Virus record (IMG/VR): IMGVR_UViG_3300028558_000016
Coordinates: 406,014 to 470,013 of that record
Reading direction: 5' to 3' (one strand)
DNA length: 64,000 nt
Source: a virus
Made by a program: the position numbers and the translations under genes. Positions within the stretch are counted from its first letter, which is position 1, and every line of letters begins with the position of its first letter. Below the pieces are notes generated by a model that did no database searches, was not told the DNA's origin, and saw nothing but the letters and a program-made list of their open reading frames with translations. This document shows positions 4,068-34,879 of the stretch, one piece after another.

Positions 4068-4743
4068 AAAATATAATTTTTTTCCATTTAATATACGTGA
4101 CAAGAAGTATAAGAAAGTCACTTATAAAAATAGGTGCGTTCTTGTTCCGCTTGAAGGAAATAAAGATTATCTCAGACATTTATGTGGTTATGCAGTGTTT
4201 AAGAAAACTGACATTCCAAAAGATTGGTGGGGAAATTATAACGCACCTGGATTGCAAGAATTAAATGTGCATGGTGGAATAACATATTGCAGACAATTTA
4301 AAGTTCCAAACCAAGCTAAGATAGAAAAGAAATTTCATGATCAAATTGATGCGTTATATGACATCTCAAACAGAGAAACTTATGACCATGAAAAAGTTTC
4401 TAAAAGGATGAAAGAAGTGAAGAGGCTGGAAAAAGAATGCAACGATGAATTGTCAAAGAGCGATGAAGGATATATTGTGTTTGGTTTTGACTGTGGACAT
4501 TATAGGGATGCAGAGAATCCAAATCTAAAAGATCCTAACCATGTAATGATATTGACCGAGCAGATGGATACGCTGCTCAAAAAATTTAAGGAAAGTTACG
4601 AGGATTATAGAGATGCGGATGGAGTGACAAAACATGTAGTTAGAAAATCCATCATGGCAAACGTAAACAGAGAAGCAGAAATTCAATGTGAGTTAGGTTT
4701 TGGCGGACTTATTAATTTGCTTTCAGGAGAAACAGAAGATTAA
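4054..4743 (+). CDS. hypothetical protein (229 aa)
   Basis: ORF with no recognisable motif. Confidence 0.45.
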   Translation: MSSSEKYNFFPFNIRDKKYKKVTYKNRCVLVPLEGNKDYLRHLCGYAVFKKTDIPKDWWGNYNAPGLQELNVHGGITYCRQFKVPNQAKIEKKFHDQIDALYDISNRETYDHEKVSKRMKEVKRLEKECNDELSKSDEGYIVFGFDCGHYRDAENPNLKDPNHVMILTEQMDTLLKKFKESYEDYRDADGVTKHVVRKSIMANVNREAEIQCELGFGGLINLLSGETED

Positions 4744-7901: not shown

Positions 7902-7984
7902 ACGTCGGTGTCCGAGCGGTCAAAGGTAGCGGTCTCCAAAACCGCGGAGTTTCTCCATCGTGGGTTCGAATCCTACCCGGCGTG
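7902..7984 (+). tRNA. tRNA-?(CCA): class II (long variable arm) tRNA with anticodon CCA, decoding UGG; G73 discriminator; Ser/Tyr-like body
   Basis: Acceptor ACGTCGG/CCGGCGT (one G·U); D region TCCGAGCGGTCAAAGG typical of Ser/Tyr/Leu; anticodon arm GCGGT-CTCCAAA-ACCGC; variable-arm hairpin GGAG-TTT-CTCC; T arm GTGGG-TTCGAAT-CCTAC. Confidence 0.6.
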
Positions 7985-8005
7985 CAAAAATTAAAAGAAG
8001 AAAAC

Positions 8006-8350
8006 ATGAATGCAACAGATGTGAAGAAAGAGCTTTACAAAAGCAAAGTGACAGCAAAGTTAACAGACATTGTTAATGGAACAATGTTTTATTCTGTTCA
8101 ATTGGAAGATGGCTTATATCGTTTCCCAATAGTTCAGGTGAAAGAAGTTGGTGGACCATTATACAGGCTTGAGGCAAAAACACAAACAAGCCCAACAGTT
8201 TCTTTGACGTACACGAAACTCGAAGAGAAATGTTATTCACTTTCTTCTGATCTCGGAAGCACTCCTTTCTATCCTGAAATGAAAGCTTCTGAATTAAACA
8301 GGTGGATTGAAAAGGCAATAAAGGATGGAGAGTTTGTGAAGTTGTATTAA
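8006..8350 (+). CDS. hypothetical protein (114 aa)
   Basis: ORF beginning MNATDVKK, downstream of the tRNA; the annotated longer ORF overlaps the tRNA, so the start was trimmed. Confidence 0.45.
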   Translation: MNATDVKKELYKSKVTAKLTDIVNGTMFYSVQLEDGLYRFPIVQVKEVGGPLYRLEAKTQTSPTVSLTYTKLEEKCYSLSSDLGSTPFYPEMKASELNRWIEKAIKDGEFVKLY

Positions 8351-8360
8351 TGGAAATTAT

Positions 8361-8450
8361 GGTGCAGGTATCCAAGGGGTTGAAGGGACCAGGCTGTGGA
8401 CCTGGTTGAAGCGAAAGCTGAACACGCGAGTTCGAATCTCGTCTTGCACC
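8361..8450 (+). tRNA. tRNA-His(GTG): tRNA-His-like (anticodon GTG) with G-1 and C73 but an unusually long variable region (about 89 nt)
   Basis: G-1 plus acceptor GTGCAGG/CTTGCAC and C73; anticodon arm CCAGG-CTGTGGA-CCTGG; extra hairpin AGC-GAAA-GCT before T arm GCGAG-TTCGAAT-CTCGT. Confidence 0.5.
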
Positions 8451-8456
8451 CACATG

Positions 8457-8530
8457 TGGATTGTAGCTCAATGGTAGAGCGCTGGTTTGTGGAACCAGAT
8501 ATGCGGGTTCGATCCCCGTCTTTCCAACCA
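8457..8530 (+). tRNA. tRNA-His(GTG): tRNA-His (anticodon GTG), class I, encoded CCA; acceptor stem with two U·U mismatches
   Basis: D arm GCTC-AATGGTA-GAGC; anticodon arm CTGGT-TTGTGGA-ACCAG; T arm GCGGG-TTCGATC-CCCGT; 3' ACCA; acceptor TGGATTG/CTTTCCA. Confidence 0.6.
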
Positions 8531-8539
8531 AAAGAAGCA

Positions 8540-9172
8540 ATGATGAAAGAGTTAAAGTTAGATAGCACGTACAAAGGAACGAGAATTCTTGTAGGAAACG
8601 AGAAGCGTGGAATGATCAATGACATGGTCATGATTTTATTGAATCAAGGCTTCACTGAGATTTCCATTCCGATCATTCAGTTGCAAGAAACATTTGCAGG
8701 AAAGGTTGGAGAAGAAAATAACAATCTAATGTTCAATTTTAAAGATCGTGGAGAAAGGAATGTTTGCTTGGCTCCTGAATACACAGCAGTGATTCAACAA
8801 TTGGCAAAGACGAAATACAAACAAGAAAAGGACGTAAAGCTTTTCTATGTGCAAGAATGTTTTAGAGGAGAAAAGCCTCAAGCAGGAAGATACAGACAGT
8901 TTACTCAATTTGGAGTTGAAATTTTAAATCCAAAGAAAGAAACTATGGAAGGATTAAAAGAATTAGCCGTCAGCCTTTTGTCCGGTTATGATTTCAAATT
9001 CAACGTCAACAGTGATGTGACGAGAGGTTTGGATTATTACAAGGACGGAAAAGGATTTGAGATCACATGCGATGAGCTTGGATCAAGCAAACAGATTTGT
9101 GGTGGAGGTTCTTATGAAGGTGGAATGGGTTTTGCAATTGGAATTGATAGGATATTAAAAACACAGTCATGA
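8540..9172 (+). CDS. compact histidyl-tRNA synthetase-like protein (class II catalytic core, about 210 aa; no anticodon-binding domain)
   Basis: Motif 2 CFRGEKPQAGRYRQFTQFGVEIL (compare HisRS FRhERPQkGRYRQFhQ); motif 3 CGGGSYEGGMGFAIGIDRIL; N-terminal GTRILVGNE...EISIPIIQLQETF matches HisRS motif 1; about half the length of canonical HisRS. Confidence 0.75.
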   Translation: MMKELKLDSTYKGTRILVGNEKRGMINDMVMILLNQGFTEISIPIIQLQETFAGKVGEENNNLMFNFKDRGERNVCLAPEYTAVIQQLAKTKYKQEKDVKLFYVQECFRGEKPQAGRYRQFTQFGVEILNPKKETMEGLKELAVSLLSGYDFKFNVNSDVTRGLDYYKDGKGFEITCDELGSSKQICGGGSYEGGMGFAIGIDRILKTQS

Positions 9173-9900
9173 AATATTTAGTAGGAATACAGCCAACAGG
9201 AAAGATCCATATTGGAAACTATATGGGTTGCTTAGCAAAGGGGTTGAGATACCAGGAGCAGGGACACGAAGTAACGTTTCTCATTGCCAACTATCACAGC
9301 ATGACGACAGACTCATACTCTGATGTGACTGAGAAGGAATTGAGAATGCTTGGATGCAAGAACATTGTGCACCAGACTCCGGCTTACACTGAATTGTTCT
9401 TCAAGCTTTGTTGCAAGATGAACCTTGGAGTTTTGCAGAAGATGCCTCAGTACAAGGATAAAAAGGAAAGTGTTGATTTCGATATGGGGATTCTTTTATA
9501 TCCAGTTCTAATGGCAGCAGACATCATCATGAATGATCCTGATGTTGTGTTGGTTGGAAGAGACCAGGTTCCACACATGGAATTGACGAACGATATTGCA
9601 AAAAGAGTTGGAGTAACAAAGAGGTTTGAATACGAGCTTGGGGATGTTGAAAAGGTGATGTCGTTAATTGATCCAACAATGAAGATGTCAAAGTCATCTG
9701 GCGAAGCTCACGTGCTTTACCTATTTGACGAGGATTACAGTAACAAATTGAAAAGAGCAAACATGAACGGAGAAGGACTCATTAATATACAAAAGATAGG
9801 AGACTTCTTTGGAATAGAAAGAAACGATATGAATTCCATATACAAAGAAAATATAGCAATAAAACTGTCATCGGTGTTCGGCACCGTCCCGGTGACTTAA
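9169..9900 (+). CDS. compact tryptophanyl-tRNA synthetase-like protein (class Ic; 243 aa; C-terminal anticodon-binding region truncated)
   Basis: GIQPTGKIHIGNYMG matches the TrpRS N-terminus (SGxQPSGelTIGNYxG); YPVLMAADI; VGRDQVPHMELTNDIAKR; KMSKS at residues 172–176; ATGA overlap with the HisRS-like stop. Confidence 0.75.
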   Translation: MKYLVGIQPTGKIHIGNYMGCLAKGLRYQEQGHEVTFLIANYHSMTTDSYSDVTEKELRMLGCKNIVHQTPAYTELFFKLCCKMNLGVLQKMPQYKDKKESVDFDMGILLYPVLMAADIIMNDPDVVLVGRDQVPHMELTNDIAKRVGVTKRFEYELGDVEKVMSLIDPTMKMSKSSGEAHVLYLFDEDYSNKLKRANMNGEGLINIQKIGDFFGIERNDMNSIYKENIAIKLSSVFGTVPVT

Positions 9901-9922
9901 ATAAAACCGGTGCCGTCCAAAT

Positions 9923-10007
9923 GGGCGTGTACCGGTGGAATCTTATACATTCTATACCCGTAGTCTGGTCGTTGAAAACGGGGGTTCAAATCCCTCCACG
10001 CCTACCA
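9923..10007 (+). tRNA. atypical tRNA-like gene (no recognisable D arm; anticodon-like hairpin with TAT; encoded CCA)
   Basis: Acceptor GGGCGTG/CACGCCT; T arm GGGGG-TTCAAAT-CCCTC; 3' ACCA; the only 5+7+5 hairpin is GGAAT-CTTATAC-ATTCT; a 26-nt extra segment precedes the T arm; 85 nt in total. Confidence 0.4.
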
Positions 10008-10817: not shown

Positions 10818-11100
10818 AAAGTTCGGTGAGTTAAACGAGGGTGGATTAGGTTATGAAAACAACAAAACGCTTCCTCCATCTGGGACACACATAAAATATG
10901 TTGCTGACACAACAGATCCAAAGACCAAAAAAATTCTCAAGATTATTTGGAATTCATGGGACGAGGCAAAAAGGAAACAGATGCTTAACAAAATGGGACA
11001 CAGCGAAAAGTATTTTGATGCTTCTTTTGAAGACCTGACAGGAGAGATCCAAGGAAAGATCGTAATGCTTGATGCCTCATTGCCAGAAAACAAGCGATAA
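10804..11100 (+). CDS. MKHIKLFE-leader family member on the + strand (N-terminus MKNLKKFGELNE)
   Basis: N-terminus matches the MKNIKxFxELNE sub-variant found in the 62–64 kb array. Confidence 0.5.
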   Translation: MKNLKKFGELNEGGLGYENNKTLPPSGTHIKYVADTTDPKTKKILKIIWNSWDEAKRKQMLNKMGHSEKYFDASFEDLTGEIQGKIVMLDASLPENKR

Positions 11101-11140
11101 AATAAATTTTTTAGTTTCAAATATAATACCTATATTTGTA
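11101..11140 (+). promoter_or_regulatory. Bacteroidota-type promoter; copy 2 of the conserved module
   Basis: AATAAATTTTTTAGTTTCAAATATAATACCTATATTTG, with a −7-like TATATTTG at 11131–11138. Confidence 0.6.
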
Positions 11141-11338
11141 AAAGATTAAGAAACAAAGAAAACCGCAAGGTATATAAGATACAAATGATGAATACAGTAA
11201 ATATTACCCGAATTATTAGGATTAGACGCAGATCAGCGACTCGCCTGGGTAGTATTATTTTATCATGAAAGTTTTAAGGATTTAGAAAACTATGAATGGA
11301 ATAAGCCCAGGACGAAAGTTCTGGGCTTTTTTCATTTT
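11141..11338 (+). ncRNA. candidate about 190-nt small RNA with a 6-codon mini-ORF; paralogous to the 7.6-kb element
   Basis: Promoter followed by AAGGTATATAAG, then a mini-ORF ATGAAAGTTTTAAGGATTTAG at 11265–11285, then terminator AGCCCAG-GACGAAAGTT-CTGGGCT followed by TTTTTT. Confidence 0.4.
11306..11338 (+). terminator. rho-independent terminator
   Basis: AGCCCAG...CTGGGCT stem followed by TTTTTT. Confidence 0.7.
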
Positions 11339-11382
11339 AAAAATATCGAAAATGAAATGGTTTAAGAAATTACAGGAAATAA

Positions 11383-11466
11383 CGGCACGTACTCAGACCA
11401 TCCTGATAAGATGGATAACTTGTAGCGGTGTTGCAAACGTGGGTTCAAATCCCTCCGTGCCGACCA
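11383..11466 (+). tRNA. atypical tRNA-like gene (anticodon-like hairpin GAT; no recognisable D arm; long extra segment; encoded CCA)
   Basis: Acceptor CGGCACG/CGTGCCG perfect; hairpin CCATC-CTGATAA-GATGG (canonical Ile-GAU loop); only 6 nt between position 9 and the hairpin; 24-nt extra segment; T arm GTGGG-TTCAAAT-CCCTC; ACCA end. Confidence 0.4.
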
Positions 11467-11737
11467 TGAAAAATATGTTGTATAAAACCGCAAGAAGGTC
11501 GTTGTCAAAAAAGACAAACAGACATTTGAGACAAACCACGTTTCTCTACGAGATGTGTGGAAATGATTTTCAAAAGCTGTTAAAGGTGGAAGAGAGATTG
11601 AAAAATTATTTTCTCTTTTATTGTCCAGGCGATCCTGAAGAAGTGGAAAAAGTTTTGGCATTGCCTGAAAAATTTTTATTGAACGATAAGAAGTGGCAAG
11701 ATGGATCAAAATATTTTTGCTTAGAAGAATTTTACGA

Positions 11738-11811
11738 CGGAATGTAGCTCAGTTGGTTAGAGCACCCGCCTGATACGCGGTAGGTCGGCAGTTCGAATCT
11801 GCCCATTCCGA
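11738..11811 (+). tRNA. tRNA-Ile(GAT): tRNA-Ile (anticodon GAT), canonical cloverleaf
   Basis: Acceptor CGGAATG/CATTCCG; D arm GCTC-AGTTGGTTA-GAGC; anticodon loop CTGATAC; T arm GGCAG-TTCGAAT-CTGCC. Confidence 0.75.
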
Positions 11812-11814
11812 CAG

Positions 11815-11960
11815 ATGTCCTTAGCTCAGTGGTTAGAGTATTATGCTGATAAAAGGTTTTAGATCTTGTAATGGAAAAATATCACGGCTCATAACCGTGG
11901 TACCAAAACAAAAATTTAAAATGCACATAAGGGTCGGTGGTTCGAATCCATCAGGACATG
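11815..11960 (+). tRNA. tRNA (Ile-GAT-like) interrupted by an about 72-nt insertion in the anticodon loop
   Basis: Acceptor ATGTCCT/AGGACAT perfect; D arm GCTC-AGTGGTTA-GAGT; anticodon-stem halves TTATG ... CATAA separated by 72 nt that begin CTGATAA and contain the hairpin CACGG-CTCATAA-CCGTG; T arm GGTGG-TTCGAAT-CCATC. Confidence 0.5.
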
Positions 11961-11969
11961 CATAAAAAT

Positions 11970-12043
11970 GCCCGCGTAGCTCAACTGGATAGAGCACCTG
12001 ACTACGGATCAGGAGGTTTAGAGTTCGAATCTCTACGTGGGTA
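11970..12043 (+). tRNA. tRNA-Arg(ACG): tRNA-Arg (anticodon ACG)
   Basis: D arm GCTC-AACTGGATA-GAGC; anticodon arm CCTGA-CTACGGA-TCAGG; T arm TAGAG-TTCGAAT-CTCTA. Confidence 0.75.
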
Positions 12044-12047
12044 CATT

Positions 12048-12121
12048 GGTTTTGTAGCTCAATTGGATAGAGCAATTCCGTCCTAAGGAAAAGGTTATAG
12101 GTTCGAGTCCTATCAAGATCA
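12048..12121 (+). tRNA. tRNA-Arg(CCT): tRNA-Arg (anticodon CCT)
   Basis: D arm GCTC-AATTGGATA-GAGC; anticodon loop GTCCTAA; T arm ATAGG-TTCGAGT-CCTAT; acceptor GGTTTTG/CAAGATC with two G·U pairs. Confidence 0.65.
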
Positions 12122-12126
12122 CAAAT

Positions 12127-12199
12127 GCCTGCGTAGCTCAGTGGACAGAGCGCCGGTCTTCGGAACCGGGCGTCGGGAGTTCGAATCTCTCCGTGGGTA
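12127..12199 (+). tRNA. tRNA-Arg(TCG): tRNA-Arg (anticodon TCG)
   Basis: D arm GCTC-AGTGGACA-GAGC; anticodon arm CCGGT-CTTCGGA-ACCGG; T arm GGGAG-TTCGAAT-CTCTC. Confidence 0.75.
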
Positions 12200-12223
12200 C
12201 TGAAGTAAAATGGAATTAAATAT

Positions 12224-12313
12224 GCCCGTGTAGCCGAGGAAGTTTTCTAAACTTTTATCCGTAATTGGAGCTGCGTCTCACGACTAATGGGGGTTCGAAT
12301 CCCTCCACGGGTA
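12224..12313 (+). tRNA. atypical tRNA-like gene (anticodon-like hairpin TCT; no recognisable D arm; 33-nt extra segment; 90 nt)
   Basis: Acceptor GCCCGTG/CACGGGT; hairpin GAAGT-TTTCTAA-ACTTT; T arm GGGGG-TTCGAAT-CCCTC; same architecture as the elements at 9923 and 11383. Confidence 0.4.
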
Positions 12314-12328
12314 CTTAAAATTAAAGTT

Positions 12329-13492
12329 ATGAAAATTGATATTGATAAAATAAAACAGATCCCCAAAGAGATTTCGGAAGAATTTGGGATGTGCGTCTAT
12401 GGACCAATCTCAGATGAGATTAAGGCATGGATGGAATTCCATGGTATGCAATCGCAAAACATGGGAAATTATACAAACATCTATACAGATAAAAACATTA
12501 TTGATCTGTTCAATAAACCAGAACCATTTGAATACATCGATGGGTTCAGTCCAAACCTAAACAAGAATCTTCACATTGGACACTTCTCAAATTTAGTTCT
12601 TGCAAAGGCTTTCGTCTCTCTTGGAATAGCAAAGAAGACTGTGGCAATATTGGGAGACACGTTAGAAGGGGATGTTTCAAAGGAAGATGCGTTGAACAAC
12701 TACAATGAGATATGTGAGAAATTCTCATACCCCGTAGATAAGATGTTCATGGCTTCTGAAATGGAATCTGATTACAACCTCGTGGATGGTGTTCATGAAT
12801 ATGAAGGAACCAAAGTGTTCTATCTTGATACGCCATTAGTTGGAATCAAAAGCGATGGGTCAACAACATATTTCTATCAGGACGTTGCATTGGCACAAAA
12901 ATTAAATGCTCCAACATTATATCTTACAGGAAGCGAACAGAACGGACATTTCAACAGCTTAAAGGAAATGTTTCCTAAAATAAAGCACATTGGACTTGGA
13001 CTTGTAAAAGCAAAAGGAGGAAAGATGTCAAGCAGACTCGGAAATGTTATTTGGATGCAAGATGTCATCGATGAAATGATGAGCAACTTTCAAGACGAAA
13101 AAGTGTGCTATAATGTTTTTGCAGGATTTATTTTGAAATCAACTCCTAAGTCTGAAAAGAACATAGACATATATCAATTGGACAATCCATTGAATTCACC
13201 TGGATTGTACTTAAGCTATACGTTAGCAAAACTAAAAAGCGCTGGAGTGAAATGTGAAGGAAAAACATTCACCTCTCAAGATCTTCAATTCAAATACATG
13301 AAGGCCTTGAACTCTCTTTCTCCAAATATTTTGCTTGAAGGTTTAATTGATCATGCAAAGAAGATAAGCGGTTTATACATCACTCACAAGATAAAAGATA
13401 ATGCGGTGAACCAGTCCATGTTTGAAATATTGGGTTCAGATTTATTATTAGGAATGAGCCTCCTGGGTTTATTTGATGTTGACAAGGTTTAA
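12329..13492 (+). CDS. compact arginyl-tRNA synthetase-like protein (class I; 388 aa versus about 570 aa canonical)
   Basis: HIGH motif SPNLNKNLHIGHFSN; ArgRS-specific KMSSRLGN in place of KMSKS (compare ArgRS kkMSTRkG) followed by ...QDVIDE; starts 16 nt after the last tRNA-like gene. Confidence 0.7.
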   Translation: MKIDIDKIKQIPKEISEEFGMCVYGPISDEIKAWMEFHGMQSQNMGNYTNIYTDKNIIDLFNKPEPFEYIDGFSPNLNKNLHIGHFSNLVLAKAFVSLGIAKKTVAILGDTLEGDVSKEDALNNYNEICEKFSYPVDKMFMASEMESDYNLVDGVHEYEGTKVFYLDTPLVGIKSDGSTTYFYQDVALAQKLNAPTLYLTGSEQNGHFNSLKEMFPKIKHIGLGLVKAKGGKMSSRLGNVIWMQDVIDEMMSNFQDEKVCYNVFAGFILKSTPKSEKNIDIYQLDNPLNSPGLYLSYTLAKLKSAGVKCEGKTFTSQDLQFKYMKALNSLSPNILLEGLIDHAKKISGLYITHKIKDNAVNQSMFEILGSDLLLGMSLLGLFDVDKV

Positions 13493-13549
13493 TTAATTTT
13501 TCGTAAATTAGTCTTGCGCATCTATTTATAAACTGATAATCTAAATCAA

Positions 13550-14506
13550 ATGGCAACCAAAACATCTAAAGCCGCAACAGGAACCGTGAAAGCACGAACA
13601 GCAGGAAGAAAAGCAACGACATCAACAAAGACACCAATGAAAGCAGAAACTACATTGGAACCAAAAAAGGCCTCGAAGATTAAAATAAGTGGAAAAGAAG
13701 TTACATTGAACGGGTATTTTAAAATTGAATTGGGAACCTTTTCGATTTTAAAGCACAACATCCGAAACAACATAAGCACTCTTTTAATAGGTCCAACAGG
13801 ACTTGGAAAAACAGATGTCGCAGTTAACATTGCGTCTGTGCTCGATGTTCCTATAACCATATTTGATATGGGAACGATGACTGACCCCATCATGGGACTT
13901 GTTGGAACTCACGTCATAGAGGTTAAAGATGGAAAAACATATTCTGAATTCAAGAAAAGCAGATTCTCTGACGTCATCCAAAAACCAGGAATAGTTTTAT
14001 TGGATGAGGTCAATCGTGCTGCATCAGCCGCTAACAACTTATTATTTCCTTGTTTAGATTTCAGAAGAGAGCTTCCAATGGAATATTCGTTTGGAGATAC
14101 TAAGCCAATTCCAATTCATCCTAAATGTGTTTTCTTTGCAACGGCAAATATAGGATCTCAGTATACCGGAACTCACAAGCTTGACAGAGCATTAATCGAT
14201 AGGTTCATGATTATTGCAGTTGATAGTCTCAACACTCAACAAATTATGTCCACGTTAGAAGTGACTCATTCTAAATTAAGTGAGACTGACAGAAAAAAGA
14301 TTGTTGACATTTACAACAAGATAAACAAAGAGCATGACGATTTCAAAATAGGTTTCAATTTGTCAATACGACATTTGAAAACTGTTGCGACACTTGTGCA
14401 AAACAAGTTCACGATATATGATGCGTATTATGCAATATGCAAAGGACTTGGTGGACCAGAAGGATTAAAAGCTATTGAATCGATCTTAAGCACCTCTAAA
14501 AAATGA
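13550..14506 (+). CDS. MoxR/CobS-like AAA+ ATPase
   Basis: Walker A LLIGPTGLGKTDVA; Walker B VLLDEVNRA (the DExNRA form typical of MoxR/CobS); K/T-rich N-terminal tail. Confidence 0.7.
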   Translation: MATKTSKAATGTVKARTAGRKATTSTKTPMKAETTLEPKKASKIKISGKEVTLNGYFKIELGTFSILKHNIRNNISTLLIGPTGLGKTDVAVNIASVLDVPITIFDMGTMTDPIMGLVGTHVIEVKDGKTYSEFKKSRFSDVIQKPGIVLLDEVNRAASAANNLLFPCLDFRRELPMEYSFGDTKPIPIHPKCVFFATANIGSQYTGTHKLDRALIDRFMIIAVDSLNTQQIMSTLEVTHSKLSETDRKKIVDIYNKINKEHDDFKIGFNLSIRHLKTVATLVQNKFTIYDAYYAICKGLGGPEGLKAIESILSTSKK

Positions 14507-16242
14507 TAGGATTTGATATTACAGGAAAGAAATCAAAAAGCGTAACTAAATGGGAAGACTCATTGTTTGGAGGCTATTACAGAACTGTAATGGATTACCC
14601 GGACGTGAAAGTTCACAGCAACGTTGATTTTGATTTTGGAACCATAGCGTATGGAAGTTACTTTTTAAAAGAGAAGATCTTGAAGATTTTCTTATCTAAG
14701 GTTAAAACACACGGTTACACTACAAAGCTTTTGGATAACTGTACTGTCGAAAGAAAACGAGATGCATGGGGTGATGAAATCACTGAGGCCACCGTAGATA
14801 ATAACAGCAAGCTCAGTACAATAAGAGCTGTGATTGCAAGAGAACCAGAGTTTGCTCCTATGTTTTCCCATTATATGAAGTTTATAATGGACACCAGAAT
14901 TTACTTTTACAAAAGCAATTCTAAAGCTCCAAGCAATGGGACTGGTTCTTCAGACGACGATTTTGAAGAATTTAAGGATGAAAACGAAAATGACGAATCA
15001 TCCGGAAAATCAGAAGAAGAAAAATCTAAAAACGGAAACTCCGGTAAAGGCAAAGAGAAAGAGAAAGAAGAAGAGAAACCAGAAGAAACCAAGGATGAAA
15101 GCTCTGGTGATGGAGAAGGAGAAGAAAAAGAGGAGCCAGAAAATTCCGAATCTGATGGTTCAAATTCTGAAGAAGAAAAGGAAGAAGAAAAAGGAGATGG
15201 AGAAGGAGAAGGAGAAGAAAAATCTCCAGAGGATAAGGCGTTGGAAGATAAATTAGAAAAAGAACTTGAGAAAAGGAAACAGGAAATAGAAGAACGAGAA
15301 CAGAAGGCAAAACAAAAACCTGTCAAAAAATTAACTCAGGCTGAAATAAATCAAATCCAAGAATCTTTCAAAAAGGCCATTCAAAGTATAGTTGAAGAGT
15401 CCATTGTTCATAGCTACATTTCAGGATTTAAAAAACCTGTTAAAGTAATTTTTGAACGACCAAATGTTAGAGACACTGAGTTTAATTACGAAGACAAAAG
15501 AATAGCCGAGAATCTCGTTAAGATGCTCGACATTTCATTTGACCCAGCGAAAGAAATAGTAAAGAACTTGCGTCTTGGCAAATTGGACATATCAAAGATT
15601 GCAGAGGTTCCAGCCGGAAATATTGCCATATACAAGCAGGATGTGGAAAATCAAACGACTAAACCATTTAGCATTGTAATATTATGTGATGAGTCAGGAA
15701 GCATGGGTTCTGGACATGAATACAAAGGACGTGGCGATAAATTGTATTCGCAATATAGAATAGTCAAACAATTGTACTTGGCATTTTCTGACATCATTCC
15801 ACAGAATAAACTCTATGTGTATGGACATTCGGGATCAGAAGAACCTGAGCTTTATGTTTATCAAGATTCTTATCGTCCAAATTTTACCAAGACGATTGAT
15901 CACATGATCCACAACCATAATCACCATTCCAATTATGATGGACCTGCAATAGAAGAAGTTTACAATCAGGTAAGAAATTCCACCGATGATAGAATAATTT
16001 TTATTTGTCTTTCTGATGGTCAACCTGCTGGAAATAATTATGGAGGTCACGATGATCAATTGAAAATGAAACAAATAATTGAAAAATGTAAGAGGGATGA
16101 ATTCGTGACTGTTGGTGTTGGAATTCAATATTTCACCGTAAAGAATCTTTATCAATACAGCACGGTGGTAACTGATCTGGATGAAATGGCTAAGAAAGTG
16201 AGTCACATAGTCAATCACGTGGTCAAAAGTGAGTTTCAATAA
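14503..16242 (+). CDS. CobT-like protein: acidic low-complexity centre plus a C-terminal VWA domain
   Basis: E/K/G-rich region EEEKEEEKGDGEGEGEEK; MIDAS motif ILCDESGSM (DxSxS); the partnership with the upstream AAA+ gene mirrors CobS/CobT and other MoxR–VWA pairs. Confidence 0.6.
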   Translation: MIGFDITGKKSKSVTKWEDSLFGGYYRTVMDYPDVKVHSNVDFDFGTIAYGSYFLKEKILKIFLSKVKTHGYTTKLLDNCTVERKRDAWGDEITEATVDNNSKLSTIRAVIAREPEFAPMFSHYMKFIMDTRIYFYKSNSKAPSNGTGSSDDDFEEFKDENENDESSGKSEEEKSKNGNSGKGKEKEKEEEKPEETKDESSGDGEGEEKEEPENSESDGSNSEEEKEEEKGDGEGEGEEKSPEDKALEDKLEKELEKRKQEIEEREQKAKQKPVKKLTQAEINQIQESFKKAIQSIVEESIVHSYISGFKKPVKVIFERPNVRDTEFNYEDKRIAENLVKMLDISFDPAKEIVKNLRLGKLDISKIAEVPAGNIAIYKQDVENQTTKPFSIVILCDESGSMGSGHEYKGRGDKLYSQYRIVKQLYLAFSDIIPQNKLYVYGHSGSEEPELYVYQDSYRPNFTKTIDHMIHNHNHHSNYDGPAIEEVYNQVRNSTDDRIIFICLSDGQPAGNNYGGHDDQLKMKQIIEKCKRDEFVTVGVGIQYFTVKNLYQYSTVVTDLDEMAKKVSHIVNHVVKSEFQ

Positions 16243-16259
16243 TTTTTTGTATATTAGCT

Positions 16260-16532
16260 ATGTTCTTTGACACGATACAAAATATTCTTCTCGCAAAGAG
16301 AAAGAGAAAAGAGTATGGATATACAGCAGTAGGAGAATTGCTTAGAAATGTTCATGGAACTGAAGCAAAAATAATAGATGTTATTTTTAATCCGGCTGGA
16401 TCCATTATAAAATTTGCTTACGATGATGACATGTTCTATTATACAACAATAGAGAAGCTCCAGACAAAATATTTTAAGATGATTGAATATTCTTCTGGTA
16501 GAATGTCAAATGAAGAATATGGAAATGAATAG
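16260..16532 (+). CDS. hypothetical protein (90 aa)
   Basis: ORF ending at the tRNA-Arg(TCT). Confidence 0.4.
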   Translation: MFFDTIQNILLAKRKRKEYGYTAVGELLRNVHGTEAKIIDVIFNPAGSIIKFAYDDDMFYYTTIEKLQTKYFKMIEYSSGRMSNEEYGNE

Positions 16533-16605
16533 GTCCCGTAGCTCAGCTGGATAGAGCACAGGTTTTCTAAACCTGCGGTCCTTGGTTCGAATCCAAGCGG
16601 GATCA
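16532..16605 (+). tRNA. tRNA-Arg(TCT): tRNA-Arg (anticodon TCT)
   Basis: Acceptor GGTCCCG/CGGGATC; D arm GCTC-AGCTGGATA-GAGC; anticodon arm CAGGT-TTTCTAA-ACCTG; T arm CTTGG-TTCGAAT-CCAAG. Confidence 0.75.
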
Positions 16606-16609
16606 CAAA

Positions 16610-16849
16610 ATGGAGAAATTTTTTAGCGACATACAGAAACACATCCTAATCGTCAGAAAAGGAAAGATGATGGGAAAGGAACTCAGCGATAAAATAAAAG
16701 ATTTATCCTCAGTTACTGACAAAATGAGAAAAAATTTGTTGAACGATCTTGAAACAAAATTTGGAATAAGGATTGAAGCAATGACAACAGTGACATTCGA
16801 TAAAAATGGAAAAGTTAAAACGGAAAGAATAATAGATTTTAAGGAATAA
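16610..16849 (+). CDS. hypothetical protein (79 aa)
   Basis: ORF. Confidence 0.4.
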   Translation: MEKFFSDIQKHILIVRKGKMMGKELSDKIKDLSSVTDKMRKNLLNDLETKFGIRIEAMTTVTFDKNGKVKTERIIDFKE

Positions 16850-17190
16850 TGGAAATAATAATGTTTATACTTGGAGCAGCCACGGTGCTGTTCATTCAGT
16901 TTTTAATGAAGAACAATTCTACAAAGAAGGTGATGAAAACTATTTATAACCCAATAGTTGAAGCCACTTATGAGAAAGGAATTATGACTGTGAAATATCA
17001 CAATGGACAAGTTTCTCGATACCAGGGAAGTTCCACAGTGTGGCATTCATATCCATTGATGCACAGGATAGGAACTTTGGGAGAAGGAAGATTGTGTGAT
17101 ATTTACCAATACATTAAAACTCATGGAAATCCTTATCCAACAGCACACAAGAAATTAGAAGAAGAAAAGAAAAACGCGTTTTACGAATAA
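16849..17190 (+). CDS. membrane-anchored hypothetical protein (113 aa)
   Basis: N-terminal TM helix IIMFILGAATVLFIQFLM. Confidence 0.45.
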   Translation: MEIIMFILGAATVLFIQFLMKNNSTKKVMKTIYNPIVEATYEKGIMTVKYHNGQVSRYQGSSTVWHSYPLMHRIGTLGEGRLCDIYQYIKTHGNPYPTAHKKLEEEKKNAFYE

Positions 17191-19048: not shown

Positions 19049-19636
19049 ATGATAACAATTGGTATAGCTGGTGGAATGGGTTCTGGTAAGAGCCACATAA
19101 GCAAAGCATTTGCAAAGAATGGAATTCCTGTTTATGACTGTGATAGCCAAACTAAGGATTTGTTAAACAGGAATGAAAGATTAAAATCCAACATGATTTC
19201 CGCGTTTGGAGAAGGATGTTATGTTAACGGAAAATACAGCAGAGATTACATAGTCGAATTGGCATCTAAAAATCCTAATGTGGTAGATGATACTGGAAAA
19301 ATAATAGGTCCGTATCTTATTGAAGACTTCAAAACATTTAAAGAAATTAATGAGTCTTTCCATACTCCATTCATTGCTATAGAATCTGCGATACTTACTA
19401 AATCAAAAAAGCTTATGAATGAAATCAATAAGCTTCTTGTGGTGACTGCCCCATTTGAAATAAGAATGGATAGAATTAAAAAGAGAGATCCATTTAGAAC
19501 TGACGATGAAATCAAATTGTTATTAAGCAAACAGCCTGAGATCAAATTGTGTGAAATAGATTTTCTTATAGATAATGATGGAACTAAAAATGTGGATGAT
19601 GCCGTTGTGACAATTATTAATGGACTTATTCCTTAA
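19049..19636 (+). CDS. dephospho-CoA kinase (CoaE)-like P-loop kinase
   Basis: N-terminal ITIGIAGGMGSGKSHISKAF...IPVYDCD matches the CoaE signature (IGLTGGIGSGKS...VIDAD); 195 aa. Confidence 0.6.
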   Translation: MITIGIAGGMGSGKSHISKAFAKNGIPVYDCDSQTKDLLNRNERLKSNMISAFGEGCYVNGKYSRDYIVELASKNPNVVDDTGKIIGPYLIEDFKTFKEINESFHTPFIAIESAILTKSKKLMNEINKLLVVTAPFEIRMDRIKKRDPFRTDDEIKLLLSKQPEIKLCEIDFLIDNDGTKNVDDAVVTIINGLIP

Positions 19637-25657: not shown

Positions 25658-26154
25658 TGTCCTATGACGTCATATTAAAGGAAGTAGGTCGTGCTAAATT
25701 AGGAGTGGTTAAGACGATCATGGATCTAACTGGTCTTGGATTAAAAGACTCAAAGGACTTGGCAGATGATGTGGACCCTCGTGTTGGAAAAGGAAGAGTG
25801 ATAAGAAGAACAGATTCGCTCGAAGAAGCAGAGTCAGTAAAAATACCGCTTGAAAATGCTGGAGCAACAGTTGAAATCATGAATAATACTACATTGGAAA
25901 CAATACAATCAACATTAACGAGTTTCAAAGTTGTCACCAGCGGTTCAATATTGCAATACACATCTTCCACGCCAAGTTTAACTGGAATATTTGAACCTAT
26001 CGCTGGTACTGGGATTGGCGGGAAATCATTTCGCATTAATTACAGATCTAAAGATGGCGAAGATAAAACAGAAACAATAGAAGCTCCTACTTTAGAAATT
26101 GCTAAAACAAAGATACTTGATTTAGATTATGTTAACTACCACATGGGAGGTTGA
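25657..26154 (+). CDS. protein with an N-terminal ribosomal bL12 (L7/L12) C-terminal-domain homologue plus an about 90-aa extension
   Basis: YDVILKEVGRAKLGVVKTIMDLTGLGLKDSKDLADDV...LEEAESVKIPLENAGATVEIMN aligns closely with the E. coli L7/L12 CTD ([38 protein letters not shown]...LEEAGAEVEVK); the L10-binding N-terminal domain is absent. Confidence 0.7.
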   Translation: MSYDVILKEVGRAKLGVVKTIMDLTGLGLKDSKDLADDVDPRVGKGRVIRRTDSLEEAESVKIPLENAGATVEIMNNTTLETIQSTLTSFKVVTSGSILQYTSSTPSLTGIFEPIAGTGIGGKSFRINYRSKDGEDKTETIEAPTLEIAKTKILDLDYVNYHMGG

Positions 26155-33260: not shown

Positions 33261-33390
33261 ATTGGAAAGATAGTAGAGTAGTGTAGTAGTTCATGTGTTA
33301 ATGTTTATTTGGTTAGCTTGAAGGCCATTCGCGAGAATGGCTTTCTCGTTTAACAACCCTGAGTCTTGAGGGGTAAATGCACCAGCAGAG

Positions 33391-33447: not shown

Positions 33448-33462
33448 ATAATAACAAACACC

Positions 33463-33759: not shown

Positions 33760-33760
33760 T

Positions 33761-34878: not shown

Positions 34879-34879
34879 G

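What the first reader, a model, noticed from the sequence alone, without database searches (positions are those of the whole stretch)
11738..13492. Near-complete tRNA-Arg isoacceptor set (ACG, CCT, TCG, plus TCT at 16532) immediately upstream of a compact ArgRS-like gene
The ArgRS call rests on HIGH plus the ArgRS-specific KMSSRLGN. The protein is about 190 aa shorter than bacterial ArgRS, and the tRNA-binding N-terminal and DALR regions are likely reduced. Carrying the amino acid's tRNAs and the synthetase together repeats the His/Trp arrangement. This suggests a deliberate three-amino-acid (His, Trp, Arg) charging toolkit. The set is notable because Arg, His and Trp tRNAs are all known targets of anticodon nucleases and tRNA-modifying toxins.
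Basis: partly seen in the sequence, partly recalled or inferred. Interest (0 to 1): 0.7.

Follow-up and report, generated by a model that had tools for sequence, protein, structure and literature searches.

The report
Phage arginine tRNA set plus mini-synthetase
A huge-phage genome fragment carries tRNAs for all six arginine codons next to a stripped-down but apparently functional arginyl-tRNA synthetase. One of those tRNAs has an unusual rewired fold that standard gene finders miss.

Summary
tRNA-Arg(ACG), (CCU) and (UCG) lie at 11970-12200 and tRNA-Arg(UCU) at 16532-16606. The finding's start coordinate, 11738, is a tRNA-Ile.

The ORF is a genuine ArgRS relative. Its true start is ATG 12329, giving 387 aa. 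HIGH, KMSSR, the arginine pocket, the A20-pocket motif and the C-terminal anticodon-binding domain are all conserved. The losses are in the N-terminal domain and the catalytic-domain insertions, not in DALR.

It belongs to a large family of ~390-aa proteins found almost only on phage or megaphage contigs of up to 727 kb. In relatives, tRNA-Arg genes are enriched next to the gene.

New here: the ORF's first 14 "codons" are the 3' end of a fifth Arg-type tRNA (12224-12313, anticodon UCU). Its D stem encloses the anticodon arm. Covariation supports this fold. It recurs for Arg and Ile anticodons in many viral contigs, including the cultured Maribacter phage Panino.

The "three-amino-acid toolkit" and the anticodon-nuclease rationale are not supported by anything tested. 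Phage-encoded tRNAs and synthetases in huge phages are already known. The compact enzyme family and the rewired tRNA are the new parts.

The parts
11303..11328 (+). Terminator-like hairpin followed by a T run; ends the upstream unit, before the tRNA array
   Evidence: 11 pairs, 6 of them G-C, then TTTTCATTTT. No terminator-like site lies between it and the ArgRS gene.
11383..11463 (+). Rewired tRNA-like gene with anticodon loop CUGAUAA (GAU, Ile); first gene of the array
   Evidence: Rfam tRNA 37.4 bits against 29; model R1 34.4 bits; missed by ARAGORN. It lies inside the mechanical ORF 11292-11747.
11738..11812 (+). Canonical tRNA-Ile(GAU); this is the finding's start coordinate
   Evidence: ARAGORN; Rfam 70.4 bits.
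11815..11961 (+). tRNA-Ile(GAU) with a 73-nt insertion after anticodon-loop position 37/38
   Evidence: ARAGORN -i gives i(38,73); Rfam 48.7 bits; conserved in L047. Introns in megaphage tRNAs were reported for Lak phages (PMC6784885).
11970..12044 (+). tRNA-Arg(ACG); A after G18G19, C35, A73, G1-U72
   Evidence: (63.9 bits).
12048..12122 (+). tRNA-Arg(CCU)
   Evidence: (60.0 bits).
12127..12200 (+). tRNA-Arg(UCG)
   Evidence: (60.5 bits).
12224..12313 (+). Rewired tRNA-Arg(UCU)-type gene. It has a 7-bp acceptor stem, then U8 A9. Nucleotides 10-13 pair with two short segments that flank a D-loop-like bulge (UAAUUGGA). The anticodon arm (loop UUUCUAA) is enclosed by that split D stem. A linker with a mini-hairpin and a T arm follow. 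It ends 15 nt before the ArgRS ATG.
   Evidence: Rfam tRNA 34.7 bits; not called by ARAGORN. Ten-sequence alignment A3: 97.7% of cells paired and 9 pairs changed on both sides, with 0 of 500 shuffles as high. Model R1 scores 103 bits. Homologues sit in tRNA arrays of other viral contigs and of Maribacter phage Panino.
12329..13492 (+). Compact arginyl-tRNA synthetase, 387 aa. Motifs: HIGH = H82-I-G-H85; KMSSR = 232-236; Arg pocket = D71, N76, Y181, D185, Q204; A20-pocket motif = Y48-T-N50. The C-terminal anticodon-binding domain spans ~290-387.
16532..16606 (+). Canonical tRNA-Arg(UCU), 3 kb downstream of the enzyme
   Evidence: (68 bits).
7902..10004 (+). Parallel module. It holds tRNA-Trp (7902-7985, long variable arm) and tRNA-His x2 (8362-8451 long-arm, 8457-8530). 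These are followed by a mini HisRS-like gene (8543-9172, 209 aa), a mini TrpRS-like gene (9169-9900, 243 aa) and a rewired tRNA-Ile(UAU) (9923-10004).

Best explanation
This is an arginine decoding-and-charging module of a huge (Mahaphage-like) bacteriophage.

A + strand array of seven tRNA or tRNA-like genes (11383-12313) follows a terminator-like hairpin. It runs without any terminator-like site into a 387-aa ArgRS gene, so the array and the enzyme are probably one transcript (inferred). Host RNase P and RNase Z would release the tRNAs. They would leave the ArgRS mRNA with a leader of about 15 nt (inferred). A tRNA ends 13-23 nt before the start codon in at least 9 related loci, whatever the tRNA's identity.

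The enzyme is a minimised but catalytically intact class Ia ArgRS. It keeps the following, and almost all of these residues are invariant across the family (shown by conservation and a confident model):
- the Rossmann core with HIGH and KMSSR;
- every residue that binds arginine in E. coli and yeast ArgRS;
- the Tyr/Phe-x-Asn motif that reads tRNA base A20;
- the whole C-terminal anticodon-binding domain.
It has shed about 165-190 aa: most of the N-terminal Add1 domain and the insertions in the catalytic domain.

All five local Arg tRNAs carry the bacterial ArgRS identity set (A at the position after G18G19, C35, U/G36, A73). Together they read all six Arg codons.

The most likely role (inferred) is to keep arginyl-tRNA supply independent of the host pool during infection, above all for AGA, which is 67% of Arg codons. 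The probable hosts are Bacteroidota or Ignavibacteriota.
For: - tRNAs.
- Family assignment: Pfam PF00750 above cutoff. The AF2 model has pLDDT 91.2 and pTM 0.90. The Foldseek top 20 are all ArgRS at E 2e-15 to 5e-12; the next families (CysRS, MetRS, GluRS) start at E 2.5e-9. hhalign to canonical ArgRS gives 99.94% and E = 2.5e-37 over residues 41-386.
- Catalytic and Arg-pocket residues: D71, N76, K79, H82, H85, Y181, D185, Q204, H207 and K232 are invariant in 34 sequences that share as little as 52% identity. They align to yeast E148, N153, H159, H162, Y347, D351, Q375 and to E. coli D118, Y313, D317, Q341 (PMC3956977).
- A20-motif equivalent: N50 is invariant and aligns with the invariant N of GPFxNF (PMC3956977, PMC8975779).
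- Family size and habitat: 103 clusters (50% identity) at E <= 1e-30, almost all full-length members 360-420 aa. Contigs reach 727 kb. There are 43 IMG/VR loci and two 634-636 kb uncultured phage genomes. Only 7 loci occur in 185,579 species genomes, and all are MAG contigs.
- tRNA-Arg linkage in relatives: p = 6.6e-6. The syntenic locus L047 confirms it.
- No terminator between the array and the gene.
- Codon usage.
- Precedent for huge-phage tRNA and aaRS complements: PMC7162821.
Against: - There is no biochemical evidence.
- The curated equivalog model argS (TIGR00456) gives only 48 bits against a cutoff of 262. The Pfam DALR_1 and Arg_tRNA_synt_N models do not hit. The domain assignments therefore rest on profile-profile and fold comparison.
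- About two thirds of related loci have no tRNA within 1 kb, so linkage is frequent but not obligatory.
- The loss of the catalytic-domain insertion and most of Add1 could alter or abolish tRNA-dependent arginine activation.
- Host and full genome are unknown, so the selective reason remains inference.
Confidence: 0.75

Rival explanations
1. Counter-defence kit. The phage replaces tRNA-Arg (and His, Trp) because host anticodon nucleases or tRNA-modifying toxins destroy the host species. The phage synthetase recharges nuclease-resistant phage tRNAs.
For: - A complete isoacceptor set is carried, including tRNA-Arg(UCG), which serves codons that are only 0.2% of the total. This fits wholesale replacement better than codon tuning.
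- Huge phages are reported to carry genes for ligating tRNAs cleaved by host defences (PMC7162821).
- The rewired tRNA-Arg(UCU) has a different body that could escape a structure-specific nuclease.
Against: - No nuclease, RNA ligase, Pnkp or RtcB-type gene was found among about 40 window ORFs scanned.
- The host is unknown.
- The anticodon loops of the canonical and the rewired Arg(UCU) tRNAs are the ordinary UUUCUAA, so there is no evasive loop change.
- Ile and Met tRNAs sit in the same arrays.
- The same rewired tRNA occurs in a 77-kb phage that has no synthetase.
Confidence: 0.15
2. Pure codon-usage supplementation. The phage is AT-rich and AGA-rich, the host pool of tRNA-Arg(UCU) is limiting, and the tRNAs simply top it up. 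The synthetase is an accessory that raises charging capacity.
For: - AGA is 67% and AGG 12% of 618 Arg codons. Window GC is 34-41%.
- There are two UCU-type genes (12224 and 16532).
- In L051 and in Maribacter phage Panino the rewired gene is the only UCU decoder in the array.
Against: - It does not explain carrying tRNA-Arg(UCG) and tRNA-Arg(ACG) for rare CGN codons.
- It does not explain a conserved, phage-restricted synthetase family.
- Host codon usage could not be examined.
Confidence: 0.2
3. The ArgRS-like protein is a non-translational paralogue. Examples would be a regulator, an arginine sensor, or a donor for tRNA-dependent arginine transfer to another molecule, by analogy with HisZ, GluQRS or tRNA-dependent DNA modification by Mom.
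For: - It is heavily truncated and scores far below curated ArgRS cut-offs.
- The neighbouring HisRS-like (209 aa) and TrpRS-like (243 aa) proteins lack anticodon-binding domains, as known paralogues do.
- tRNA-dependent DNA hypermodification exists in phages (PMC13219725).
Against: - All catalytic, arginine-binding and tRNA-recognition elements (A20 motif, anticodon-binding domain) are conserved.
- The gene is linked to tRNA-Arg genes.
- No transferase partner was seen next to it. The conserved neighbours are a MoxR-type AAA+ ATPase and a VWA protein.
Confidence: 0.07
4. The element at 12224-12313 is not a working tRNA. It would be a cis-acting tRNA-mimic leader that lets ArgRS repress its own mRNA (as in the E. 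coli thrS operator), or a decayed pseudogene.
For: - It ends 15 nt before the start codon in the window, L047, L048 and L020.
- It lacks a normal D arm.
- The thermodynamic z-score is only -1.47.
- RNAalifold on its own does not recover the short core helices.
Against: - In at least 7 other loci the same RNA sits inside tRNA arrays with no ArgRS gene downstream. In L050 a terminator hairpin follows it.
- Acceptor, core and anticodon stems covary.
- The ArgRS identity base after GG is A in all 14 Arg-type copies and U in all 9 Ile-type copies. In a wider viral sample the counts are 31/31 and 17/17.
- Other, ordinary tRNAs occupy the -15 position in other loci.
Confidence: 0.12

Closest known systems
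Canonical bacterial/eukaryotic arginyl-tRNA synthetase (E. coli ArgS, PDB 4oby/5yym/5b63; yeast 1bs2/1f7u; Pfam PF03485 + PF00750 + PF05746)
   Same: - Class Ia Rossmann core.
- SPN..K..HxGH and (K)MS(S/T)R motifs.
- Identical arginine-pocket residues.
- Tyr/Phe-x-Asn A20 motif.
- C-terminal helical anticodon-binding domain ending in the conserved LLG(I/L)...(E/D)K motif.
- Best structural matches.
   Different: - 387 aa instead of about 550-610.
- The N-terminal Add1 domain is reduced to about 65 aa.
- About 70 aa of catalytic-domain insertion are absent, plus about 15 and about 12 aa elsewhere.
- Only 13-16% identity to solved structures.
- It fails the NCBIfam equivalog cutoff.
- It is found almost only on phage contigs.
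tRNA and aminoacyl-tRNA-synthetase complements of huge phages (Al-Shayeb et al. 2020, PMC7162821; Mahaphage clade, including Lak phages, PMC6784885)
   Same: - Very large phage genomes with tRNA arrays and their own synthetases.
- Predicted Bacteroidetes hosts for the largest genomes.
- The best phage-database matches are two 634-636 kb uncultured phage genomes.
- Intron-bearing tRNAs, as reported for Lak phages.
   Different: - That work identified synthetases with TIGRFAM models and describes them as related to host enzymes. This compact ArgRS scores 48 bits against TIGR00456's 262, so it would probably be missed.
- Neither the compact family, its linkage to tRNA-Arg genes, nor the rewired tRNAs are described in the sections of those papers that I searched by term.
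Synthetases of giant eukaryotic viruses (Mimivirus ArgRS, TyrRS, CysRS, MetRS; Klosneuvirus and Tupanvirus sets). Recalled from my own knowledge; not checked here.
   Same: A virus carries its own ArgRS together with tRNAs.
   Different: - Eukaryote-infecting viruses.
- Enzymes of about normal length.
- No evidence of close gene-level pairing with a complete isoacceptor set.
Structurally deviant natural tRNAs: D-arm-lacking mitochondrial tRNA-Ser(AGY) and nematode armless tRNAs (PMC4013460, PMC7609411); 8/4 and 9/3 'allo-tRNAs' of bacteria and phages (PMC5389517)
   Same: A tRNA that departs from the cloverleaf yet keeps the acceptor stem, T arm, anticodon arm and identity nucleotides. The normal D arm is missing from its usual place.
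   Different: - Here the D-stem 5' strand and a D-loop-like GG-containing segment are both kept but re-connected. Nucleotides 10-13 pair with two segments that lie 3' of the anticodon arm, so the anticodon arm emerges from inside the D stem.
- The setting is phage, not organellar.
- It is seen for Arg and Ile (and CAU) anticodons.
- I found no description of this topology in the searchable literature.
E. coli thrS operator and other tRNA-mimic leaders of synthetase genes
   Same: A tRNA-like structure lies immediately upstream of a synthetase start codon, with the cognate anticodon.
   Different: The element also occurs as a free-standing gene inside tRNA arrays, far from any ArgRS and in a phage that has none. 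Unrelated ordinary tRNAs occupy the same upstream position in other loci.

Membership tests
Arginyl-tRNA synthetase (class Ia) | Rossmann-fold catalytic domain with a HIGH signature preceded by S-P/A-N..K | tested here: met
   FSPNLNKNLHIGH; S74, P75, N76, K79, H82, G84 and H85 are invariant. Pfam PF00750 scores 33 bits against 23.3. The fold matches ArgRS structures.
Arginyl-tRNA synthetase (class Ia) | Second ATP loop, (K)MS(T/S)R in place of KMSKS | tested here: met
   KMSSRLGN at 232-239 aligns with yeast MSTRKG. K232 is invariant and M233, S234, S235 are nearly invariant.
Arginyl-tRNA synthetase (class Ia) | Arginine side-chain pocket (E. coli D118, Y313, D317, Q341; yeast E148, Y347, D351, Q375) | tested here: met
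   D71, Y181, D185 and Q204 are all invariant and fall in the aligned columns (residue roles from PMC3956977).
Arginyl-tRNA synthetase (class Ia) | C-terminal DALR-type anticodon-binding domain | tested here: met
   Pfam DALR_1 does not hit directly. Profile-profile alignment nevertheless covers P0257 residues 440-553, which are DALR_1 by Pfam, with compact residues ~290-387 up to the C-terminus. The model is all-helical there.
Arginyl-tRNA synthetase (class Ia) | N-terminal Add1 domain of about 100 aa (PF03485) forming the A20 pocket | tested here: inconclusive
   Only about 65 aa precede the core, and PF03485 gives no hit. Residues 41-68 align with the last strand of Add1, and Y48-T-N50 matches the Tyr/Phe-x-Asn A20 motif, with N50 invariant. 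The first 40 aa are unaligned.
Arginyl-tRNA synthetase (class Ia) | Curated equivalog score (NCBIfam TIGR00456 argS) | tested here: not met
   48.2 bits against a cutoff of 261.65. This reflects divergence and truncation; only residues 169-253 match.
Arginyl-tRNA synthetase (class Ia) | tRNA-dependent arginine activation and arginylation of tRNA-Arg | not testable with these tools
   Requires an enzyme assay.
Huge-phage (Mahaphage-like) translation gene complement | Located on a phage genome larger than 200 kb that carries tRNA arrays and synthetases | tested here: met
   The window has phage-type genes, 12 tRNA or tRNA-like genes and three synthetase-like genes. Homologues lie on contigs of 360-727 kb and in 634-636 kb uncultured phage genomes. 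The size of this particular genome is unknown.
Canonical cloverleaf tRNA (element 12224-12313) | 7-bp acceptor stem; 5-bp T stem with a GTTCGAATC loop; anticodon stem with a 7-nt loop, U33 and purine 37 | tested here: met
   Acceptor: 6 of 7 pairs changed on both sides. Loop: UUUCUAA. Rfam tRNA scores 34.7 bits against 29.
Canonical cloverleaf tRNA (element 12224-12313) | D arm (stem 10-13/22-25 closing the D loop) placed between the acceptor stem and the anticodon arm | tested here: not met
   Only 5 nt separate U8A9 from the anticodon stem. Nucleotides 10-11 covary with two nucleotides 3' of the GG segment. Nucleotides 12-13 pair with the two nucleotides 3' of the anticodon stem (CG/CG, CA/TG and CC/GG across families). 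ARAGORN does not call it, or mislabels homologues.
Bacterial tRNA-Arg identity set (A20, C35, U/G36, A/G73; PMC9976931) | A at the position after G18G19; C35; U36 or G36; A or G at the discriminator | tested here: met
   All four canonical Arg tRNAs and the rewired one have GGA, C35, U/G36 and A73. Across the rewired family, 14/14 Arg-type copies have A and 9/9 Ile-type copies have U. In the IMG/VR sample the counts are 31/31 and 17/17.
Anti-anticodon-nuclease systems (tRNA repair or replacement) | A known tRNA-targeting nuclease in the host, or phage RNA-repair enzymes, or nuclease-evasive changes in the anticodon loop | tested here: inconclusive
   No repair or nuclease domain was found in about 40 scanned ORFs, and the anticodon loops are ordinary. 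The host and the rest of the genome were not available.
Autoregulatory tRNA-mimic leader of a synthetase gene | Element found only in the 5' leader of the cognate synthetase mRNA | tested here: not met
   The element occurs in tRNA arrays without a downstream ArgRS (L050, L051, L053, L059, L061, L062) and in Maribacter phage Panino, which has no such enzyme.

The most novel reading that the evidence does not exclude
Phages, especially those of Bacteroidota-type hosts, use a previously undescribed natural tRNA architecture for arginine and isoleucine (and CAU) decoding. The D-stem 5' strand pairs with two segments on the 3' side of the anticodon arm. As a result the anticodon arm grows out of the D stem and the G18G19-containing D loop becomes a bulge.

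These RNAs keep the cognate identity nucleotide (A20 for Arg, U20 for Ile). They are sometimes the only decoder of the phage's commonest Arg codon. Standard annotation misses them or translates them as bogus ORFs.

In this window one such tRNA-Arg(UCU) is the last gene before a minimised, phage-specific ArgRS. Together they could form a streamlined, partly host-independent arginine translation subsystem.
Probability: 0.4. Interest if true: 0.85.

Novelty: new variant of a known kind. Interest (0 to 1): 0.68.

Why it matters
Phage-encoded tRNAs and synthetases are known. Three things go beyond that.

(1) A large, conserved, phage-restricted family of ArgRS is about one third smaller than any canonical enzyme, yet it keeps every catalytic and tRNA-reading element. 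That defines a natural minimal ArgRS. It is of interest for the evolution of synthetase add-on domains and for engineering compact or orthogonal pairs. Curated models miss it, so synthetase counts in phage genomes are probably underestimates.

(2) tRNA-Arg genes are statistically linked to this gene across many phages. This supports co-selection of enzyme and substrates.

(3) The rewired tRNA fold, if functional, would add a new class of non-cloverleaf tRNA outside organelles. It would also show that tRNA inventories of phages are systematically incomplete. It occurs in a cultured phage-host pair (Maribacter phage Panino / Maribacter halichondriae), so the question is directly testable.

Tried and rejected
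- Nucleotide search of 11000-17000 against 50,697 phage records: no match. Only protein-level relatives exist.
- Direct phmmer against PDB was only marginal (E 0.03). Profile and fold searches were needed.
- Cis-regulatory leader or thrS-like operator reading of 12224-12313: rejected. The RNA is free-standing elsewhere.
- Intron reading of the odd tRNA: removing the hairpin leaves no anticodon arm, so it is not an interrupted canonical tRNA (by inspection).
- A UCCG/UGGA hairpin predicted by single-sequence folding is not kept in L050 (AACG), so it was dropped. RNAalifold's alternative 36-45/37-44 pairs show no covariation.
- RNAalifold alone does not recover the short core helices, and the folding z-score is unremarkable (-1.47). 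Support for the core comes only from explicit covariation counts and cross-family comparison.
- Co-evolution of the rewired tRNA with the compact ArgRS (loss of Add1 matched by loss of the D arm): weakened. The A20 motif and A20 are both kept, and Panino has the tRNA but no such enzyme.
- Search for tRNA-repair or nuclease genes among about 40 window ORFs (Pfam, PHROGs): nothing found. PADLOC was not run.
- Literature searches for a description of this tRNA topology or of compact phage ArgRS: none found. The library lacks many subscription papers.
- My simple parser could not resolve 23 of 79 IMG/VR pattern matches, and 8 were ordinary class II Ser/Leu tRNAs.

Full report
**Observation.** ARAGORN finds nine tRNA genes in the window. 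They include tRNA-Arg(ACG) at 11970-12044, tRNA-Arg(CCT) at 12048-12122, tRNA-Arg(TCG) at 12127-12200 and tRNA-Arg(TCT) at 16532-16606. Rfam scores them at 60-68 bits against a gathering score of 29. The finding's start coordinate, 11738, is tRNA-Ile(GAT). The ORF 12287-13492 (401 aa) contains NLHIGHF and KMSSRLGN.

Reading the DNA and the Rfam alignment shows that the first 14 codons of this ORF (MGVRIPPRVLKIKV) are the T arm and 3' acceptor strand of another tRNA-like gene at 12224-12313. The real start is ATG 12329, giving 387 aa. This agrees with the conserved N-terminus and the 388-394 aa length of homologues. One homologue, P0002, carries the same artefactual MGVRIPPRV extension.

**What the protein is.**
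- Pfam tRNA-synt_1d hits above its cutoff, but only over residues 169-266. Direct comparison with PDB sequences is marginal.
- A 34-sequence family alignment (A1) gave a confident AlphaFold model (pLDDT 91.2, pTM 0.90).
- The 20 best PDB matches of that model are all arginyl-tRNA synthetases (E 2e-15 to 5e-12, TM 0.62-0.75). The next families (CysRS, MetRS, GluRS) start at E 2.5e-9.
- The family profile aligns with yeast ArgRS at the HIGH region, the Y/D/Q arginine-pocket segment, the MSTR loop, and the C-terminal domain up to the last residues.
- Profile-profile comparison with seven canonical-length ArgRS sequences gives 99.94% probability and E = 2.5e-37. Compact residues 41-386 align with residues 66-552 of a 553-aa enzyme. 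In that enzyme Pfam places the catalytic domain at 90-425 and DALR_1 at 440-553.

The deletions are as follows:
- about 45 + 25 aa of insertion after the GD(T/W)G segment of the catalytic domain;
- about 15 aa after KMSSR;
- about 12 aa in the C-terminal domain;
- most of the N-terminal Add1 domain.

So the anticodon-binding domain is kept.

Residues that bind arginine in E. coli (D118, Y313, D317, Q341; PMC3956977) correspond to D71, Y181, D185 and Q204. All are invariant, as are N76, K79, H82, H85 and K232. N50, in the motif Y48-T-N50, aligns with the invariant Asn of GPFxNF. This is the Tyr/Phe-x-Asn motif that forms the A20 pocket (PMC3956977, PMC8975779).

The curated NCBIfam argS model gives only 48 bits against a cutoff of 262, and PHROGs has only a weak hit. 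Some sources accordingly call these proteins hypothetical, and some call them ArgRS.

**Family and habitat.** There are 708 relatives at 90% clustering. The top 120 are all about 390 aa and at least 51% identical. Many lie on contigs of 360-727 kb. An exhaustive profile search finds 103 clusters (50% identity) at E <= 1e-30, and almost all full-length members are 360-420 aa. Canonical-length ArgRS appear only from about E 1e-19.

Relatives lie in 43 IMG/VR loci and in two uncultured phage genomes of 634,780 and 636,363 bp. Only 7 loci occur among 185,579 species genomes. All are MAG contigs (Ignavibacteriales, Sediminibacterium, Bacteroidota and others), some of 375-522 kb, and these are most likely binned phage.

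The window itself is 92% coding under the standard code. It has phage-type genes: a weak baseplate-hub-like match (E 5e-5), an exonuclease, a lytic transglycosylase and a CobS-like ATPase. It also has a sigma factor, an L7/L12-domain protein and a vault-protein-like gene. Huge phages of the Mahaphage clade with many tRNAs, up to 15 synthetases and predicted Bacteroidetes hosts are documented (PMC7162821).

**Linkage with tRNA-Arg.** A 92%-identical relative (L047) has the same order: tRNA-Trp, two tRNA-His, HisRS-like, TrpRS-like, Ile tRNAs, Arg(ACG), Arg(CCT), Arg(TCG), Arg(TCT), the odd tRNA, then ArgRS.

Across 42 non-redundant related loci, 15 of 37 tRNAs within 1 kb of the gene are tRNA-Arg, against 8 of 114 farther away (odds ratio 9, p = 6.6e-6). 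Nine loci have a tRNA-Arg within 1 kb, and 27 have no tRNA that close. The linkage is therefore recurrent but not universal, and the loci are not independent.

A tRNA or tRNA-like gene ends 13-23 nt before the start codon in the window, L047, L048, L020, L002, L003, L013, L016 and L027, whatever its identity. A terminator-like hairpin precedes the array (11303-11328), and none separates the array from the enzyme. I infer co-transcription, with tRNA processing generating a short-leader mRNA.

**Codon usage.** In 19,038 codons of the window, Arg is 3.25%. The split is AGA 67%, AGG 12%, CGT 11%, CGA 6%, CGC 3% and CGG 1%. This explains a need for UCU-type tRNAs. It does not explain a dedicated tRNA-Arg(UCG). 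The full set looks like replacement of the whole host Arg pool rather than fine tuning. Whether host shut-off, host tRNA loss or defence drives this cannot be decided here.

**The fifth Arg gene.** The element 12224-12313 has the following parts:
- a 7-bp acceptor stem;
- U8 A9;
- only five nucleotides where the D arm should be;
- a 6-bp stem with loop UUUCUAA (anticodon UCU);
- then AUCCGUAAUUGGAGCUG, a mini-hairpin, a normal T arm and A73.

Pattern scans found homologues in IMG/VR and metagenome contigs.

In a 10-sequence alignment, the proposed structure has 97.7% of cells paired and 9 pairs changed on both sides. None of 500 shuffles reaches this, and shifted registers drop to 44-56% paired. 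Six of 7 acceptor pairs covary. So do pairs 10-48 and 11-47, which join nucleotides 10-11 to two nucleotides downstream of the GG segment.

Nucleotides 12-13 pair with the two nucleotides just 3' of the anticodon stem. These are CG/CG in the UCU family, CA/TG and CC/GG in other members.

The 5' strand of the D stem is thus retained, but its partners are split by a bulge that looks like the D loop (UAAUUGGA). The anticodon arm sits where the D loop normally is. RNAalifold alone recovers the acceptor, anticodon and T arms but not the short core helices. The folding z-score is ordinary (-1.47). The core topology is therefore supported by covariation only.

**How widespread the rewired fold is.** A covariance model built from the alignment finds the same architecture with other anticodons:
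- Arg UCU and UCG;
- Ile UAU, including window 9923-10004;
- Ile GAU, including window 11383-11463.

The base after GG is A in 14/14 Arg-type copies and U in 9/9 Ile-type copies. This matches the bacterial identity rules: A20 for Arg and U20 for Ile (PMC9976931).

Of the 79 matches examined:
- 31 parse as Arg (UCU 20, ACG 6, CCU 4, UCG 1), all with A after GG;
- 15 parse as Ile and 2 as CAU, all with U after GG;
- 8 are ordinary class II Ser/Leu tRNAs;
- 23 could not be parsed.

These RNAs sit inside tRNA arrays next to other Arg tRNAs. In L050 a terminator follows one. Most copies have no ArgRS downstream. That rules out a dedicated leader or operator role.

The cultured Maribacter phage Panino (PP540027.1, 77 kb) has one at 28066-28145 (85 bits, with compensatory changes in the anticodon stem). 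It lies between tRNA-Val and tRNA-Met and is unannotated. A hypothetical CDS overlaps it. It is the only UCU decoder in the 5-kb stretch of its tRNA array that was fetched. The phage's description reports 20 tRNAs and does not mention it (PMC11590407). Panino lacks the compact ArgRS, so this tRNA type does not depend on that enzyme.

I found no paper that describes this topology. Lak megaphage tRNAs with 'introns' have been reported (PMC6784885). The 73-nt insertion in tRNA-Ile 11815-11961 fits that precedent.

**Interpretation.** The best-supported reading is a phage arginine translation module. It holds a complete set of Arg decoders, one of them structurally rewired. They carry the bacterial ArgRS identity elements and are transcribed together with a minimal but intact ArgRS. 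The steps shown are gene content, conservation, fold, identity nucleotides and statistical linkage. The steps inferred are co-transcription and processing, enzymatic activity, and the selective reason.

- the window is a small part of a probably much larger genome;
- it also carries Ile and Met tRNAs;
- a 67%-identical relative has a GluRS/GlnRS-type gene beside its ArgRS;
- huge phages carry up to 15 synthetases (PMC7162821).

The anticodon-nuclease idea remains possible but has no positive evidence here.

**Verdict.** The finding is real, and its kind (huge-phage tRNAs plus synthetases) is already known. Two aspects are new variants. One is a large, under-annotated, phage-restricted family of minimal ArgRS. 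The other is a non-cloverleaf tRNA architecture for Arg and Ile that annotation pipelines miss and that is experimentally accessible in a cultured phage.

Noticed in passing
window 9923-10004 (+) and 11383-11463 (+): Two more rewired tRNA-like genes with Ile anticodon loops: CUUAUAC (UAU) and CUGAUAA (GAU). Default ARAGORN misses both. The second lies inside the mechanical ORF 11292-11747, whose 5' part is therefore probably not coding.
   Followed up: partly
window 11815-11961 (+); L047 4461-4608 and about 4230-4460: tRNA-Ile(GAU) carries a 73-nt insertion after anticodon-loop position 37/38. The insertion contains a hairpin, CACGG-CUCAUAA-CCGUG, that looks like a CAU anticodon arm, and it is conserved in L047. 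Between L047's two Ile genes there is another tRNA-like gene interrupted by an insertion of about 190 nt. The splicing mechanism is unknown.
   Followed up: partly
window 7902-7985 (tRNA-Trp, 84 nt) and 8362-8451 (tRNA-His, 90 nt); L001, L002, L047, L050, L051, L059, L061: Many tRNAs of these phages have class-II-like long variable-arm hairpins although they read Trp, His, Asn, Thr, Val, Met, Ile or Arg(CCU) codons. Long variable arms are normally restricted to Leu, Ser, bacterial Tyr and Sec.
   Followed up: partly
window 8543-9172 (+) and 9169-9900 (+): The HisRS-like protein is 209 aa once the overlap with the tRNA-His genes is removed. It has class II motifs 2 and 3 (motif 1 not checked) and no C-terminal anticodon-binding domain. 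The TrpRS-like protein is 243 aa, and the trpS profile is covered only to position 224 of 328. Both score below the NCBIfam equivalog cut-offs (142 against 287 and 131 against 177). Their reading frames overlap by 4 nt (ATGA).
   Followed up: partly
window 12314-12328; L002, L003, L013, L016, L020, L027, L047, L048: A tRNA or tRNA-like gene of varying identity (Arg, Thr, Gly, Ile, Ser, Met) ends 13-23 nt before the start codon of the compact ArgRS gene. This suggests that tRNA 3' processing defines a short mRNA leader.
   Followed up: partly
window 11970-12044, 12127-12200, 12224-12313: tRNA-Arg(ACG), tRNA-Arg(UCG) and the rewired tRNA-Arg(UCU) share a G1-U72 wobble at the top of the acceptor stem and very similar acceptor sequences (GCCCGCG, GCCUGCG, GCCCGUG). 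Eight of 10 rewired Arg(UCU) homologues keep G1-U72. This may be an identity or processing signal.
   Followed up: no
L189 (Maribacter phage Panino PP540027.1) 2497-2576 = record 28066-28145: An unannotated rewired tRNA-Arg(UCU) in a cultured phage. The annotated hypothetical CDS PANI_CDS0068 (27999-28106) overlaps it and is probably spurious.
   Followed up: yes
L052 13351-13437, L056 1174-1259, L058 5905-5991, L060 1327-1412: tRNAs of 86-87 nt with a UCU anticodon, a Ser/Leu-like D arm (GACUGAGUGGUCGAAAGU) and a long variable arm. Either an Arg tRNA on a class II body or a possible AGA-reading Ser-type tRNA.
   Followed up: no
window 13550-14506 (+) and 14503-16242 (+); L048 1313-3942: A MoxR/CobS-like AAA+ ATPase (PF07728, phrog_249) and a 579-aa VWA-domain protein directly follow the ArgRS gene. 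The ATPase and a following gene of similar size (no Pfam hit on record) are in the same order in the 76%-identical relative. Any functional link to the synthetase is unknown.
   Followed up: no
window 25657-26154 (+), 30744-33260 (+), 2197-3180 (+), 19049-19636 (+), 41958-42986 (-): Other notable genes: a protein with a ribosomal L7/L12 C-terminal domain; an 838-aa protein with major-vault-protein shoulder and repeat domains; an ADP-ribosylglycohydrolase; a dephospho-CoA kinase; a sigma-70-family factor.
   Followed up: no
window about 32000-36000: Gene orientation and GC/AT skew switch sign here. Genes are mostly on + to about 34 kb and mostly on - afterwards (one + strand exception at 52384-53118), and cumulative GC skew peaks here. 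This is a convergent-module boundary or a replication landmark.
   Followed up: no
L049 3204-4763: In a relative whose ArgRS is 67% identical, a 519-aa GluRS/GlnRS-type gene (PF00749 + PF19269) lies 1.2 kb upstream of the compact ArgRS, and no tRNA is detected in 13 kb.
   Followed up: no
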